Part shown: positions 29,086 through 60,739 of the stretch, piece after piece | How positions within the stretch are numbered: position 1 is the first letter of the stretch | How the letters are laid out: every line of letters starts with the position of its first letter | Assembly (NCBI RefSeq): GCF_009914755.1 | Contig: NC_060926.1 | Length of the DNA stretch: 64,000 bases | Source: the human T2T-CHM13v2.0 reference genome, Homo sapiens | Direction: 5' to 3' (one strand) | Notes under the pieces: model-generated | The model's database searches: none | Told to the model about the DNA's origin: nothing | Seen by the model: only the letters and a program-made list of their open reading frames with translations | Program-made: the position numbers and the translations under genes

Positions 29086-31897
29086 AAAAAAAGACGAAGA
29101 AGGACATTACATAATAGTAAAGAGTTCAATTCAACAAGAAGACCTAACTGTCTTAAATATATATGCACTCAACACAGGGGCACCCAGATTCATAAAGCAA
29201 GGTCTAGAGAGATCTACAAGCAGACATAGACTCCCACACAATAAAATGGGAGATTTCAACACTCCACTGACAGTGTTAAATAGATAATCGAGACAGAAAA
29301 TTAACAAGGGTATTCAGGACCTAAACTCAGCACTGGACCAAATGGATCTGATAGACCTTTACATAACTCTCCACACCCCGCCCCCCAAAAAAAACACAAC
29401 AGAATATACATTCTTCTCATCACCATATGGCACATACTCTAAAACTGACATCATAGTTGGACATAAACCAATTATCAACAATTGTAAAAGAACTGAAATT
29501 ATACTAAACACACTCTTGGACCACAGCACAATAAAAAAAAAAGTCAAGACTATGAAAATCACTCAAAACCAAGGCACTAAAAATCACTCAAGACTATGAA
29601 AACCATGCAATTGCATGGAAATTAAGCAACATGCTCCTGAATGACTTTGGGGTAGATAACAAAATTAAAGGAGAAATAAAGAACCTTTTTGAAAATAATG
29701 AGAACAAAAATAAAACATACCAGAATCTCTGGAACCCAGCTATGTCAGTGTTAAGAGGAAATTCATAGTATGAAATGCACACATCAAAAAGTTAGAAGGA
29801 TCTCAAATGAATGACCTAACTTCACAACTGAAAGAATTGGAGAAGCAAGAACAAATCAACCCCAAAGCTAGCAGAAGCTAAGAAACAACAAAAATCAGAG
29901 TGCAACTGAAGAAAATCAAGATGTGAAAAAAAATTCAAAAAATAAAGAATCCAGGAGCTGTTTTTTTTAAAAAAAAATTAATAAAATAGACTAATAAAGA
30001 CAAAAGAGAGAAGATTCTAATAAATGCAATCAAAAGCGACAAGAGGGATATTAGTTCATTCTCACACTGCTATAAAGAGCTACATGAGACTGGGTAATGT
30101 ATGAAGAAAAGAGGTTTAATTCACTCACAGTTCTGTAGGCTGTACAGAAAGCATAGCTGGGAAACTTACAATCATGGTAGAAGGTGAAGGGGAAGCAAGC
30201 ACATCTTACCATGGCGGAGCAGGAGAGAGAGAGAGGGCTAGGGGGGAAGTGCTACACAATTTCAAAAAACAAGATCTCATGAGAACTCACTCACAAGAAC
30301 AACAAGGGGGAAATCCATTTCCATGATCCAATTGTCTCACACCAGGTCCCTCCCCCAACACTAGGAATTACAATTAGACATAAGATTTGGGTGGGAACAC
30401 AGAGCCAAACCATGTTAGCAGATATTACCACTGACCTCACAGAAAAACAAAAAACCATCAGAGAATACCATGAACACCTCTACACACACAAACTAGAAAA
30501 CCTAGAAGAAAAGGAAAAATTCCTGGACACATACACCCTCCCAAAACTGAGCCAAGAAGAAACTGATTCCCTGAACAGACTGATAATGAGCTGCTAAATT
30601 AAATCAGTAATAAATAGCCTACCAACCAAAGAAAGCCCAGGACCTGATGGATTCACAGCCAAATTCTACCAGACATACAAGGAAGAGCTGGTAGCATTCC
30701 TACAGAAACTATTCCAAAAAATTAAGGAGGGAGGACTCCTCCACAACTCATTGTATAAGGCCAACATCATCTTGATACCAAATCCTCACAGAGGCACAAC
30801 AACAAAAAGAACTTTAGGCCAATATCCTTGATGAACATTGATGCAAATATCCTCAACAAAATGCAAACCTAATCCAGCAGCACATCAAAAAGCTAATCCA
30901 CCATGATCAGGTAGGCTTCTTCCCAGGGATGCAAGGTTGGTTCAACATATGGAAATCAATAAATGTGATTCATTGCATAAATAGAACTAAAGACAAAAAC
31001 CACATGATTATCGCAATAGATGCAGAAAAGGCCTTTGATAAAATTAAACACCCTTCCAGGTTAAAAAACTCTCAATAAACTAGGCATTAAAGGAACATAC
31101 CTCAAAATAATAAGAGCCATCTATGACAAACCCACAGCCAACATCATTCTAAAGGGGCAAAAGCTGAAAGTCCTAGCCAGAGCAATCAGGCAAAAGAAAG
31201 AAATAAAAGACATCCAAAGAGGAAGAGAGGAAGTCAAACTATCCCTGTTTATAGACAACATGATTCTTTATCTAAAAAAACCCATAGTTGTGGCCCCACA
31301 GTTCCCCTAGACAATAAATAACTTCAGCAATGTTGCAGGATACACAATCAATGTACAAAAATCACTAGCATTCCTATACAACAGCAACACCAAATCAAGA
31401 GCCAAATCAGAAAGGCAGTGTAATTCACAACTGTCACAAAAGTAATAAAATATCTAAGAATACAGCTAACCAGGGAGGTGAAATATCTCTACAATGAAAA
31501 TTTTAAAACACTCTTCAAAGAGCTCAGAGAAGACACAAACAAATAAAAAAGCATCCCATGGTCATGGATAGGAAGAATAAATATCATCAAAATGGCCATA
31601 CTGCCCAAAACAATTTACAGATTCAATGCCATTCCTATCAAGCTACTAATGACATATTTCACAGAATTAGAAAAAAACTATTTTAAAATTCATATAGAAC
31701 TGAAAAAGAGCCCAATTAGCCAAGGCAATTCTCAGCAAAAAGAACAAAGCTGGAAGCATCATGTTACCTGACTTCAAACTATACTACAAAGCTACACTAA
31801 CCAAAACAGCATTGTACTGGTACAAAAACAGGCACATATACCAATGGAACAGGATACAGAGCCAATCTACAACCATCTGCTGTTCGACAAAGCTGGC
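29086..31897 (+). mobile_element. Inverted 5' segment (ORF2 EN to RT) of the same old L1PA
   Basis: Colinear with the young L1 at about 56778-59272. It ends at the same ORF2 position where the minus segment ends. Confidence 0.92.
30047..30417 (-). mobile_element. THE1D/MSTA-like solo LTR nested in L1 ORF2
   Basis: TATTAGTTCATTCTCACACTGCTATAAAG..GAAACTTACAATCATGG..GATTTGGGTGGGAACACAGAGCCAAACCAT. About 370 bp. L1 resumes with GATATTACCACTGAC. Confidence 0.9.
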
Positions 31898-54069: not shown

Positions 54070-54531
54070 ATCAGATACCTGAAAAACTCTCTCTTTGATT
54101 ACTCATTGGTCATTCACCTCTATTGTTCTTTGTGCAAAGAACCTGATTTTGTATGGGTATGGGACAGTCATATGCTTAAGATGAGATGGGACACTCTCCA
54201 CTCTCATCTCATGAAGTTTGCTAGGACCAGTGGCTGAGTTTTGATTAGTGTGAGTCAGTCATCAGGAATCTTGTCTCCTTGACCATGGTTGTTCAAGAAC
54301 AGGCATGCAATGGAATTCTGACTGACGGGCTGTAGAAAAAGACAGTACTTGATAAATCTCTTATAAAGAGACATCAGAAGAAACATTTTCCCATCTAGTT
54401 CTTGAAACTGTATTGTGAGAGAACATGATACTTGGAGCTTTTGTAGCCATTTTATGACTATAACAAAATAAATTCGAGGTCAAAGCCAGCATAATGAGGA
54501 TGTCAGAACTGAGTTATGAAACATACCTTGG
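54070..54531 (+). mobile_element. Old MaLR LTR (MLT1J/K-like), split by the young L1 and continuing at about 60635-60735
   Basis: AGAACCTGATTTTGT..CATGATACTTGGAGCTTTTGTAGCCATTTTATGAC..AAAGCCAGCATAATGAGGATG, resuming CCTTGGTCCTTGAT after the L1. Confidence 0.6.
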
Positions 54532-55436
54532 CGGGGAGGAGCCAAGATGGCCGAGTAGGAACAGCTCCGGTCTACAGCTCCCAGCTTGAGCGACGCAGAA
54601 GACGGGTGATTTCTGCATTTCCATCTGAGGTACCGGGTTCATCTCACTAGGGAGTGCCAGACAGTGGGCGCAGGTCAGTGAGTGCGTGCACCGTGCGCGA
54701 GCCGAAGCAGGGCGAGGCACTGCCTCACTTGGGAAGGGCAAGGGGTCAGGGAGTTCCCTTTCCCAGTCAAAGAAAGGGGTGACGGACAGCACCTGGAAAT
54801 CGGGTCACTCCAACCGGAATACTGCGCTTTTCCGACGGGCTTAAAAAACGGCGCACCACGAGATTATAACCCCCACCTGGCTCGGAGGGTCCTATGCCCA
54901 GGGAGTCTCGCTGATTGCTAGCACAGCAGTCAGAGATCAAACTGCAAGGCGGCAGCGAGGCTGGGGGAGGGGCGCCCGCCATTGCCCAGGCTTGCTTAGG
55001 TAAACAAAGCAGCCCGGAAGCTCGAACTGGGTGGAGCCCACCACAGCTCACGGAGGCTTGCCTGCCTCTGTAGGCTCCACCTCTGGGGGCAGGGCACAGA
55101 CAACAAAAAGACAACAGTAACTTCTGCAGACTTAAATGTCCCTGTCTGACAGCTTTGAAGAGAGCAGTGGTTCTCCCAGCACGCAGCTGGAGATCTGAGA
55201 ACGGGCAGACTGCCTCCTCAAGTGGGTCCCTGACCCCTGACCCCCGAGCAGCCTAACTGGGAGGCACCCCCCAGCAGGGGCACACTGACACCTCACACGG
55301 CAGGGTATTCCAACAGACCTGCAGCTGAGGGTCCTGTCTGTTAGAAGGAAAACTAACAAACAGAAAGGACATCCACACCAAAAACCCATCTGTACATCAC
55401 CATCATCAAAGACCAAAAGTAGATAAAACCACAAAG
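54532..55436 (+). promoter_or_regulatory. L1 5'UTR internal sense/antisense promoter (CpG-rich, YY1 site)
   Basis: YY1 motif CAAGATGGC at 54543-54551. This is the only CpG-dense stretch in the window. Confidence 0.85.
54767..54982 (-). CDS. L1 ORF0 (71 aa), open
   Basis: ATG at 54982 gives 216 nt: MAGAPPPASLPPCSLISDCCASNQRD...VRHPFL*. This is the known primate L1 antisense ORF0. Confidence 0.75.
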   Translation of the reverse strand: MAGAPPPASLPPCSLISDCCASNQRDSLGIGPSEPGGGYNLVVRRFLSPSEKRSIPVGVTRFPGAVRHPFL

Positions 55437-56448
55437 ATGGGGAAAAAACAGAACAGAAAAACTGGAAACTCTAAAACGCAGAGCGCCTCTCCTCCTCCAA
55501 AGGAACGCAGTTCCTCACCAGCAACGGAACAAAGCTGGATGCAGAATGACTTTGACGAGCTGACAGAAGAAGGCTTCAGACGATCAAATTACTCTGAGCT
55601 ATGGGAGGACATTCAAACCAAAGGCAAAGAAGTTGAAAACTTTGAAAAAAATTTAGAAGAATGTATAACTAGAATAACCAATACAGAGAAGTGCTTAAAG
55701 GAGCTGATAGAGCTGAAAACCAAGGCTCGAGAACTACGTGAAGAATGCAGAAGCCTCAGGAGCCAATGCGATCAACTGGAAGAAAGGGTATCAGCAATGG
55801 AAGAGGAAATGAATGAAATGAAGCGAGAAGGGAAGTTTAGAGAAAAAAGAATAAAAAGAAATGAACAAAGCCTCCAAGAAATATGGGACTATGTGAAAAG
55901 ACCAAATTTATGTCTGATTGCTGTACCTGAAAGTGATGGGGAGAATGGAACCAAGTTGGAGAACACACTGCAGGATATTATCCAGGAGAACTTCCCCAAT
56001 CTAGCAAGGCAGGCCAACGTTCAGATTCAGGAAATACAGAGAATGCCACAAAGATACTCCTCGAGAAGAGCAACTCCAAGACACATAATTGTCAGATTCA
56101 CCAAAGTTGAAATGAAGGAAAAAATGTTAAGGGCAGCCAGAGAGAAAGGTCGGGTTACCCACAAAGGGAAGCCCATCAGACTAACAGCGGATCTCTCGGC
56201 AGAAACCCTACAAGCCAGAAGAGAGTGGGGGCCAATATTCAACATTCTTAAAGAAAAGAATTTTCAACCCAGAATTTCATATCCAGCCAAACTAAGCTTC
56301 ATAAGCGAAGGAGAAATAAAATACAGACAAGCAAATGCTGAGAGATTTTGTCACCACCAGACCTGCCCTAAAAGAGCTCCTGAAGGAAGCGCTAAATATG
56401 GAAAGGAACAACCGGTACCAGCCGCTGCAAAATCATGCCAAAATGTAA
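55437..56448 (+). pseudogene. L1 ORF1p, frameshifted near the C-terminus
   Basis: MGKKQNRKTGNSKTQ... is normal up to EGEIKY. A short deletion at about 56324 then shifts the frame (RQANAERF...), losing the normal C-terminus. Confidence 0.93.
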
Positions 56449-56511
56449 AGACCATCGAGACTAGGAAGAAACTGCATCAACTAATGAGCAAAATAACCAG
56501 CTAACATCATC

Positions 56512-60339
<3,828 letters not shown>

Positions 60340-60572
60340 ACAATGAGATCACATGGACACAGGAAGAGGAATATCACACTCTGGGGACTGTTGTGGGGTG
60401 GGGTGAGGGGGGAGGGATAGCATCGGGAGATATACCTAATGCTAGATGACGAGTTAGTGGGTGCAGCGCACCAGCATGGCACATGTATACATATGTAACT
60501 AACCTGCACAATGTGCACATGTACCCTAAAACTTAAAGTATAATAATTTAAAAAAAAAGAAAAAGAAAAAAG

Positions 60573-60619
60573 AAAAGCAATGTTCAACTCTGTGAGATGA
60601 ATGCACACATCACAAAGAA
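60573..60619. repeat. Alpha-satellite (ALR) fragment, L1 3' transduction
   Basis: AAAAGCAATGTTCAACTCTGTGAGATGAATGCACACATCACAAAGAA matches the recalled alphoid monomer. It lies between two A-tracts inside the L1 TSDs. Confidence 0.88.
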
Positions 60620-60739
60620 AAAAAAATACCTTGGTCCTTGATCATAGCACATAATACTAAATTAATGAATCTTCAAATATTCCTACATCTCTGTTCCTTT
60701 TTCACTAAATAAAGTCAGTTTAAGAAGGTCATATAATAC

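What the first reader, a model, noticed from the sequence alone, without database searches (positions are those of the whole stretch)
60541..60634. L1 3' transduction of centromeric alpha-satellite into non-centromeric DNA
Seen: L1 3' end, then A-rich tail 1 (60550-60576), then GCAATGTTCAACTCTGTGAGATGAATGCACACATCACAAAG, then A-tail 2, then the 3' TSD AAAAATACCTTGG (60622-60634), matching the 5' AAACATACCTTGG (54519-54531). The split MLT1 resumes after it, so the extra ~45 bp arrived with the L1. Established: this sequence matches the alphoid monomer (AAAG.AA.GTTCAACTCTGTGAG.TGAATGCACACATCACAAAGAAG), and read-through past the weak L1 poly(A) signal produces 3' transductions. There is no other alphoid DNA in the window. 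Inference: the parent (or grandparent) L1 lay within, probably monomeric/pericentromeric, alpha-satellite and was active in the germline from there. The tag is a lineage barcode for sibling insertions and a route for dispersing satellite seeds. I recall T2T-era centromere analyses mentioning short L1PA3-linked alphoid transductions, so this may be a member of a known family rather than new. That recollection needs checking.
Basis: partly seen in the sequence, partly recalled or inferred. Interest (0 to 1): 0.8.

Follow-up and report, generated by a model that had tools for sequence, protein, structure and literature searches.

The report
L1 insertion carrying alpha-satellite tag
A full-length L1 jumping gene on a chromosome 2 arm carries a 41-47-base piece of centromeric alpha-satellite behind its tail, most likely copied from the DNA next to its parent element, which is a known way for L1 to move flanking DNA.

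Summary
A full-length L1 (54532-60549) ends in a 27-nt interrupted A-tail. A 41-nt tag follows (60577-60617; alphoid homology 60573-60619), then a 9-A run and a target-site duplication (perfect 9-mer ATACCTTGG; 13-mer with one mismatch). The tag is alpha satellite: 1,006 genome places match at 2 or fewer mismatches (reversed control 0). In the fetched loci these matches recur every ~171 bp inside arrays. The exact 41-mer is unique to this window, and the window holds no other alphoid.

The best reading is a short L1 3' transduction from a source L1 lying sense-oriented in non-HOR alphoid DNA. The tag starts at the monomer's TCAAAA|G box, a good L1 endonuclease site. This L1 has TTT where other L1 ends have AATAAA.

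Four junction searches found no sibling and no source in CHM13, so the "lineage barcode" has nothing to bar-code here. Weak points are that the tag holds no poly(A) signal, the second A-run is very short, no ape orthologue could be checked, and the "split MLT1" claim could not be tested. This is an ordinary mechanism with an unusual cargo, of low to moderate interest.

The parts
54519..54531 (+). 5' copy of the target-site duplication (AAACATACCTTGG; the perfect repeat is ATACCTTGG, 54523-54531)
54532..60549 (+). Full-length L1, 6,018 bp, from the 5' end ...GGGGAGGAGCCAAGATGGCC to the 3' end ...AAGTATAATAATTT. About 98% identical to its closest relatives over the last 1.2 kb. No longer coding-competent.
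55437..56504 (+). ORF at the position expected for L1 ORF1, open for 355 aa
   Evidence: placement as ORF1 is by position and recalled L1 layout
56806..59405 (+). ORF2 region broken into pieces (515 aa at 56806-58353, 352 aa at 58347-59405, then smaller ORFs)
60547..60549 (+). TTT at the position where other L1 ends (strings) have AATAAA. Only the weak variant TTTAAA is left. The same ending occurs in 81 L1 copies in the genome.
60550..60576 (+). Tail 1: interrupted A-tail (A9 G A5 G A6 G A4). In the transduction model it is templated by the source locus.
60577..60617 (+). Alpha-satellite tag, 41 nt. BLAST homology to monomers runs 60573-60619 (47 nt, 97.9% to the best monomer). It equals the monomer stretch between the boxes TCAAAA|G and CACAAAG|AAGTTTC.
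60618..60626 (+). Second A-run, 9 A. Only 2-7 of them need be untemplated, depending on where the alphoid homology and the duplication are taken to end.
60622..60634 (+). 3' copy of the target-site duplication (AAAAATACCTTGG; the perfect repeat is ATACCTTGG, 60626-60634)

Best explanation
This is a short L1 3' transduction.

Proposed sequence of events (inferred unless marked):
1. A full-length source L1 sat in monomeric or divergent pericentromeric alpha satellite, in the same orientation as the monomers. It had inserted at the monomer's TCAAAA|G box.
2. Its own poly(A) signal was weak. The copy here has TTT where AATAAA normally lies (shown in the sequence).
3. A transcript from its own promoter ran through the genomic A-tail into the next 41-47 nt of the monomer. 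Its 3' end formed at CACAAAG(AA) and received a short A-tail.
4. This RNA was inserted by target-primed reverse transcription at GTTATG/AAACATACCTTGG on the chromosome 2 arm, in the germline or early embryo.

The result is L1, tail 1, alphoid tag and an A-run, bracketed by one 9-13 bp duplication.

Shown: the anatomy, the alphoid identity of the tag, its uniqueness, and the absence of siblings and of a source in CHM13. Inferred: the source's location, the read-through, and how the RNA 3' end formed.
For: 1. Anatomy: L1 end, 27-nt tail, foreign 41 nt and a 9-A run lie inside one duplication that abuts both junctions exactly.

2. The L1 is full length to its 5' end, as expected for a promoter-driven read-through RNA.

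3. The tag is alpha satellite in sense continuity with the tail. In 45 native instances (30 distinct) the homologue is preceded by ...CTCAATCAAAA and followed by AAGTTTCTCAGAATG. The tag therefore starts exactly at an A-rich box that fits the L1 endonuclease preference (recalled: TT/AAAA type). That is where the 3' flank of a source L1 should start.

4. L1s really do sit in alphoid this way. 19 other places have an L1 end plus tail followed by sense alphoid within 20-50 nt, and 8 more within 51-81 nt. One of them (chr1:126,792,290) used the same box.

5. The L1 end lacks AATAAA/ATTAAA. Only TTTAAA, AAAAAG and AAGAAA occur in 60520-60640.

6. The 9-A run leaves almost no room for a second insertion's own tail plus duplication. 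This argues against a nested two-step origin (inference).
Against: - No source and no sibling in CHM13. The 121-nt junction query gave no second full match (40 of 275 candidates scored). The 3' junction at 3 or fewer mismatches gave only two in-array variants. The tail-1-plus-tag 42-mer at 3 or fewer mismatches gave only the window. The one same-phase L1, on chr1, differs at about 7 of 47 tag positions.
- No poly(A) hexamer from my recalled list of 16 lies inside the tag. The nearest upstream one (AAGAAA, 60570-60575) is about 42 nt from the tag's end.
- The second A-run is only 9 A, and as few as 2-4 are untemplated.
- The 13-nt duplication has one mismatch.
- The pre-insertion state was not checked in any other primate.
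- The claim that the flanks are halves of one MLT1 could not be tested.
Confidence: 0.72

Rival explanations
1. Template switch within one insertion event. L1 reverse transcriptase started on an A-tailed alpha-satellite transcript at the target nick, copied about 45 nt, then jumped to the 3' end of the poly(A) tail of an L1 mRNA and copied it to its 5' end.
For: It gives the same single duplication around both parts. It needs no source L1 in alphoid, which fits the failure to find one. Template-switch chimeras made by L1 are established (recalled: U6/L1-type chimeric retrocopies).
Against: Known chimeras have the L1 or mRNA as the 3' part and no A-tail between the parts (recalled). Here the order is reversed, and a 27-nt interrupted tail lies between them. 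The model still needs an alphoid RNA ending in A's at the same signal-less site. The tag's 5' end falls exactly on the TCAAAA|G box, which would be a coincidence under a random jump. L1's cis preference (established knowledge) favours its own read-through RNA.
Confidence: 0.12
2. Two separate events. The L1 inserted first with a plain tail. Later a severely 5'-truncated retrocopy of an alphoid-containing RNA inserted in trans into that tail. A-rich tails are good L1 endonuclease targets and give same-sense nested inserts.
For: The structure L1-An-X-An cannot by itself exclude an insertion within the tail. No sibling shares the tag.
Against: Only 9 A follow the tag, and up to 5 of them belong to the L1's own duplication. 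That leaves no room for the second insert's tail plus its duplication plus the remainder of the first tail. A 41-47-nt retrocopy of a transcript that is not normally polyadenylated would be very unusual. This model needs two rare events where the transduction model needs one.
Confidence: 0.1
3. A non-retrotransposition origin: filler DNA captured during repair, gene conversion from alphoid DNA, or a local assembly error.
For: None specific. Short satellite pieces can be captured at breaks (general knowledge). Feliciello et al. 2020 (PMC7719264, passages read) propose microhomology-guided recombination for euchromatic alpha repeats.
Against: The tag lies precisely between an L1 tail and an A-run inside the L1's duplication. 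It is in sense continuity with the tail at an endonuclease-type box. The window is from a finished T2T assembly (per the hub's annotation). No alphoid lies nearby to convert from.
Confidence: 0.04

Closest known systems
L1 3' transduction (read-through past the weak L1 poly(A) signal; Moran 1999, Pickeral 2000, Goodier 2000 and Szak 2003 are recalled; catalogued in CHM13 by Hoyt et al., preprint 10.1101/2021.07.12.451456, passages read: 183 high-confidence L1 3' events)
   Same: L1 with its own tail, then non-L1 sequence, then a second A-run, all inside one target-site duplication. The L1 poly(A) signal is weakened.
   Different: The cargo is a sub-monomer piece of a high-copy satellite, so its origin cannot be mapped uniquely. 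No source or sibling was found. There is no poly(A) signal in the cargo, and the second tail is very short. The T2T-Y methods state that transduced sequences were masked with RepeatMasker before the donor search. That probably hides cases like this one.
Alu-mediated transduction of the WaluSat satellite (Hoyt et al. preprint)
   Same: A non-LTR retroelement carries a satellite unit to new loci by 3' transduction.
   Different: WaluSat was carried by an AluSx3 to several chromosomes and later expanded into arrays. Here there is a single L1-borne partial alphoid monomer, with no spread and no expansion.
Euchromatic single alpha-satellite repeats (Feliciello et al. 2020, PMC7719264; Table 1 and mechanism passages read)
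   Same: A short alpha-satellite piece in a chromosome arm, next to a young L1. Several of their entries are 'adjacent to L1PA...'.
   Different: They propose insertion by short-homology recombination and never use the word transduction (0 occurrences). Their smallest listed repeat is 0.3 monomer, and I did not see this locus in the part of the table I read. Here the L1 duplication encloses the piece, which points to retrotransposition.
L1 insertions inside monomeric alpha satellite (pericentromeric layers)
   Same: The presumed source type exists. 19 + 8 L1 ends are followed by sense alphoid at alphoid blocks. chr11:49,106,786 was verified as an L1 inside an array.
   Different: Those are resident L1s in arrays. 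The window holds the offspring type, with only 41-47 nt of alphoid and unique DNA beyond.

Membership tests
L1 3' transduction | L1 3' end with its own A-tail, followed by non-L1 sequence on the same strand | tested here: met
   L1 end at 60549, tail 60550-60576, non-L1 (alphoid) 60577-60617
L1 3' transduction | A second poly(A) tail at the end of the extra sequence | tested here: met
   9 A at 60618-60626. This is weak: only 2-7 need be untemplated, since the alphoid continues AA and the duplication may start with A's.
L1 3' transduction | One target-site duplication enclosing the L1 plus the extra sequence | tested here: met
   ATACCTTGG at 54523-54531 and 60626-60634, abutting both junctions. 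The 13-mer reading has one mismatch.
L1 3' transduction | Endonuclease-type target (T-rich bottom strand at the nick) | tested here: inconclusive
   the target reads TATG/AAACAT, so the bottom strand is GTTT/CATA. This is a loose fit to the recalled TTTT/AA consensus.
L1 3' transduction | Confirmatory, not defining: the extra sequence can be traced to the 3' flank of a source L1, or is shared by siblings | tested here: inconclusive
   None found in CHM13. One haploid genome and fast-evolving alphoid DNA cannot show that no source existed.
L1 3' transduction | Typical, not defining: a poly(A) signal 10-35 nt before the end of the extra sequence | tested here: not met
   none of 16 recalled hexamers lies within 60577-60614. 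The nearest upstream is AAGAAA at 60570-60575.
Alpha satellite (as sequence family) | Homology to the ~171-bp monomer | tested here: met
   1,006 places at 2 or fewer mismatches, control 0; period 171; 47 nt, 97.9%
Alpha satellite (as satellite array) | Tandem head-to-tail monomers at this locus | tested here: not met
   only 47 nt (0.27 monomer) and no other alphoid in the 64 kb. It is an alphoid-derived fragment, not an array.
Template-switch chimeric retrocopy (U6/L1 type) | The 5' part is another RNA, the 3' part is an L1/Alu/mRNA with the tail, and no A-tail lies between the parts (definition recalled) | tested here: not met
   the order is reversed (L1 is 5', the foreign piece is 3') and a 27-nt tail separates the parts

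The most novel reading that the evidence does not exclude
L1 3' transduction from L1s resident in pericentromeric alphoid DNA may be a general but overlooked route by which single alpha-satellite pieces reach chromosome arms. It could explain some of the 'euchromatic alpha repeats adjacent to L1PA' that are currently ascribed to recombination. Transduction catalogues would miss such cases because they mask repeats in the transduced segment. The L1 lineage with TTT in place of AATAAA (81 copies) would be unusually prone to read-through. This would also show that L1s embedded in alphoid chromatin were transcribed and retrotransposed in the germline.
Probability: 0.3. Interest if true: 0.45.

Novelty: new member of a known kind. 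Interest (0 to 1): 0.27.

Why it matters
If the reading is right, this copy records that a full-length L1 embedded in pericentromeric alpha satellite was transcribed from its own promoter and retrotransposed in the germline or early embryo. Its age is of the order suggested by about 2% divergence from its closest relatives. That is a small but concrete data point on the activity of centromere-proximal L1s. It also bears on how sub-monomer satellite pieces come to lie in chromosome arms.

There is a practical gap as well. Pipelines that mask repeats in transduced sequence (T2T-Y methods) will not list such events. A published survey of euchromatic alpha repeats does not consider transduction at all. 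In itself the locus is an ordinary, inactive L1 in a gene-poor region, with no sign of function.

Tried and rejected
1. Sibling search by the 3' junction (tag end plus A9, 3 or fewer mismatches). The two extra hits (chr12:37,665,099 and chr11:55,128,975) are A-rich variants inside alphoid arrays, not L1 tags.

2. Source search by 'L1 end, gap, alphoid anchor' (antisense anchor gave 0). This found 19 + 8 resident L1s at alphoid blocks.
- chr1:126,792,290 has the right phase but the wrong monomer: about 7 of 47 differences, and about 12 substitutions in about 345 nt of L1.
- chr10:39,285,058 shares the TTT ending, but its flank starts at another phase.
- chr1:126,773,434 shares TTT but is followed by antisense alphoid.
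- chr11:49,106,786 is an L1 inside an array.

3. Source search through the nearest monomers. The 12 fetched loci (±1.5 kb) around GCAATG-type one-mismatch monomers (chr3, 7, 13, 14, 15, 21, 22) show no match to the L1-end part of the query (loci L049 and L052 were not re-blasted for L1, only their 40-nt context was seen).

4. Parent search by L1 similarity. The best is about 98%. No copy reaches 99%, and none carries the TTT end.

5. Paralogue test for continuity of the flanks ('split MLT1'). It was too insensitive, so there is no conclusion.

7. Supplementary tables of the published T2T repeat paper, which might list this locus as a transduction, are not held. bioRxiv supplements are closed.

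8. Side check for excess read-through tags in the 13 other held TTT-lineage copies. A few have tiny interruptions between A-runs. Without a duplication analysis this shows nothing.

Full report
**What is in the sequence**

The window's + strand holds a full-length L1 of 6,018 bp (54532-60549).
- Its 5' end (…GGGGAGGAGCCAAGATGGCC…) follows directly on AAACATACCTTGG (54519-54531).
- Its 3' end reads …CTTAAAGTATAATAATTT.

The following parts come next:

| Part | Coordinates | Content |
|---|---|---|
| Tail 1 | 60550-60576 | A9 G A5 G A6 G A4 |
| Tag | 60577-60617 | 41 nt, GCAATGTTCAAC…CACAAAG |
| Second A-run | 60618-60626 | 9 A |
| Target sequence resumes | 60627-60634 | TACCTTGG, then unique DNA |

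A word search between the two boundary regions gives ATACCTTGG (54523 / 60626) as the longest shared word, and it abuts both junctions. Two random segments of these sizes share some 9-mer in 253 of 2000 trials. The exact placement is what counts, not the word itself.

The L1 is not coding-competent. An ORF of 355 aa lies at the ORF1 position, and the ORF2 region is split into 515-aa and 352-aa pieces plus smaller ones.

**The tag is alpha satellite**

- A BLAST of 60520-60640 against the window's own genome (T2T-CHM13, per the hub) hit the tag part at 98% on chr21, 14, 13, 3, 22 and 15. The L1-end part hit elsewhere, and only the window matched both parts. Here 40 of 275 candidates were scored and 42 matches were listed.
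- In the fetched loci the tag matches recur about every 170 bp.
- Tandem Repeats Finder reports period 171 with 11.9 copies in locus L004.
- An exhaustive pattern search found the exact 41-mer only in the window. It found 87 places with one mismatch and 1,006 places (598 + 408) with 2 or fewer mismatches, against 0 + 0 for the reversed pattern (only the first 100 places were listed).
- The 87 one-mismatch places lie on 21 chromosomes. By my recollection of CHM13 centromere coordinates, all are in centromere-proximal blocks, acrocentric short arms, or the old 2q21 centromere remnant.
- Every instance that I hold as sequence (45 instances, 30 distinct) has alphoid on both sides: …CTCAATCAAAA before and AAGTTTCTCAGAATG… after.
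- I infer that about a thousand scattered matches, rather than tens of thousands concentrated on one chromosome, fits monomeric or divergent alphoid and not an active higher-order array.
- Alphoid homology in the window spans 60573-60619 (47 nt, 97.9%). Nothing else in the 64 kb is alphoid.

**Siblings and source**

In a 3' transduction, tail 1 and the tag are both templated at the source. The source and any sibling should therefore share them. Four independent searches found none in CHM13.

1. The 121-nt junction query gave no second full match.
2. The tag end plus A9, at 3 or fewer mismatches, gave the window and two A-rich variants inside arrays.
3. 'L1 end, 20-50 nt, TTCAACTCTGTGAG' gave 20 places.
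   - Nineteen are resident L1s on chr1, 5, 13, 14, 15, 20, 21 and 22.
   - Many of these are evidently one insertion copied among the acrocentrics.
   - Only chr1:126,792,290 has the tail fused to the monomer at the same box.
   - Its monomer differs at about 7 of 47 positions, and its L1 by about 12 substitutions in about 345 nt.
4. The 42-mer of tail 1 plus the tag start, at 3 or fewer mismatches, gave the window alone.

Further searches added nothing:
- Widening the gap to 51-81 nt gave 8 more resident L1s. One of them, chr11:49,106,786, was verified as an L1 inside an array.
- The antisense anchor gave 0 hits.
- A parent search by L1 similarity gave many copies at about 98% and none at 99% or better. 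Here 40 of 5,569 candidates were scored.
- Against 25 held L1 copies the last 1.4 kb is 87.7-96.8% identical.

The source is therefore lost, diverged, polymorphic, or in a lineage not represented by this haploid genome.

**Mechanism**

The anatomy is that of an L1 3' transduction. Three details add weight.

- The tag begins exactly at the monomer's TCAAAA|G box. An L1 inserting into alphoid in sense orientation would leave its 3' flank there, and the chr1 element shows that this box is used.
- The L1 end has TTT where other L1 ends printed have AATAAA. Within 60520-60640 only TTTAAA, AAAAAG and AAGAAA occur, from my recalled list of 16 hexamers. Weak termination is therefore plausible. The same ending is found in 81 L1 copies (42 + 39). 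Two of them sit in alphoid DNA, but with flanks that do not fit.
- Only 9 A follow the tag, and some belong to the duplication. This leaves no room for a second, nested insertion's own tail and duplication.

There are also points against a textbook case.
- The tag holds no poly(A) hexamer.
- The RNA end at CACAAAG(AA) lies about 42 nt past the last AAGAAA of the tail.
- The untemplated part of the second A-run may be as short as 2-4 nt.

I infer that cleavage was directed by the A-rich tail hexamers together with the U-rich alphoid sequence that natively follows (AAGTTTCTCAGAATGCTTCTGTCTAGTTTTTATG). This step is not shown.

I rate the rivals as follows:

| Explanation | Confidence |
|---|---|
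| 3' transduction | 0.72 |
| Template switch from an A-tailed alphoid RNA onto the L1 mRNA tail | about 0.12 |
| Later nested micro-insertion into the tail | about 0.10 |
| Non-retrotransposition origin | about 0.04 |

**Literature**

- Feliciello et al. 2020 (PMC7719264; Table 1 and the mechanism and discussion passages seen) list single euchromatic alpha repeats, many of them 'adjacent to L1PA…'.
  - They propose short-homology recombination, and the word 'transduction' occurs 0 times.
  - They report no spread of hybrid alpha-retroelement units.
- The T2T repeat preprint (10.1101/2021.07.12.451456; transduction passages seen) reports 183 high-confidence L1 3' transductions in CHM13. It also reports an Alu-borne satellite (WaluSat) that later expanded. 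No alpha satellite is named in those passages.
- The T2T-Y preprint methods state that transduced sequences were masked with RepeatMasker before the donor search.
- The T2T centromere preprint has 0 occurrences of 'transduc' in its main text.
- Full-text searches combining transduction, alpha satellite and L1 terms returned no paper whose title or abstract describes alphoid carried by L1.
  - I opened only the T2T repeat preprint, the nanomonsv paper and the T2T-Y preprint.
  - The alpha-satellite passages of the nanomonsv paper concern tumour breakends, not L1 transduction.
Supplementary tables that might list this locus were not available.

**Verdict**

The mechanism is known, the locus is a singleton with no identifiable parent, and the 0.27-monomer cargo has done nothing further.

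It is a new member of a known kind. It has modest value as evidence that an alphoid-embedded L1 was once active, and as a pointer to a blind spot in transduction catalogues.

Left open:
- the orthologous empty site;
- the L1 subfamily name;
- the MLT1 claim (searches were too insensitive);
- the suprachromosomal family of the tag.

Noticed in passing
window 60541-60555; 81 places genome-wide: An L1 3'-end variant ...ATAATAATTTAAAAAA replaces the usual AATAAA with a TTT-interrupted end. It occurs in 81 copies (42 + 39). Whether this lineage shows more read-through or transduction than others is unknown. A few held copies have tiny interruptions between two A-runs (L015, L030, L010, L022).
   Followed up: partly
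L032 (chr12:37,665,099, minus strand) and L033 (chr11:55,128,975): Alphoid monomers in which the stretch after ...GCACACATCA is replaced by a run of 7-19 A inside an otherwise continuous array. These could be replication slippage, or a scar of an aborted or deleted retro-insertion.
   Followed up: no
chr13:11.30-11.41 and 13.16 Mb, chr14:6.28-9.76 Mb, chr15:14.2-14.3 Mb, chr21:8.36-8.48 and 10.17 Mb, chr22:11.83-12.44 Mb: The same L1-in-alphoid junction strings recur, nearly letter for letter, on all five acrocentric chromosomes. These are single old L1 insertions copied with their alphoid flanks by pericentromeric or short-arm duplications.
   Followed up: no
L004 2011-2330 (chr21:10.02 Mb): A 25-A run (2299-2323) and about 290 nt of non-periodic sequence interrupt the alphoid array, followed by alphoid in inverted orientation. 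This is probably another retroelement insertion plus an inversion breakpoint.
   Followed up: no
window 55437-56504: The ORF at the L1 ORF1 position is 355 aa, which is longer than the 338 aa I recall for human L1 ORF1p. This could be a subfamily-specific length difference or a lost stop codon.
   Followed up: no
window 29769-29791: An 18-23-nt word ...TGAAATGCACACATCAAAAAG resembles the alphoid box TGAATGCACACATCACAAAG (E>=0.03). It lies in what looks like an old L1 fragment and is a chance similarity, not alphoid.
   Followed up: yes
L084 (chr11:49,106,760-49,107,260): An L1 with a (TAAA)n-type tail lies inside an alphoid block about 1.8 Mb short of the nearest chr11 alphoid hits (50.87 Mb). 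Sense alphoid continues for at least 430 bp after its tail. It is an example of the resident-source configuration.
   Followed up: partly
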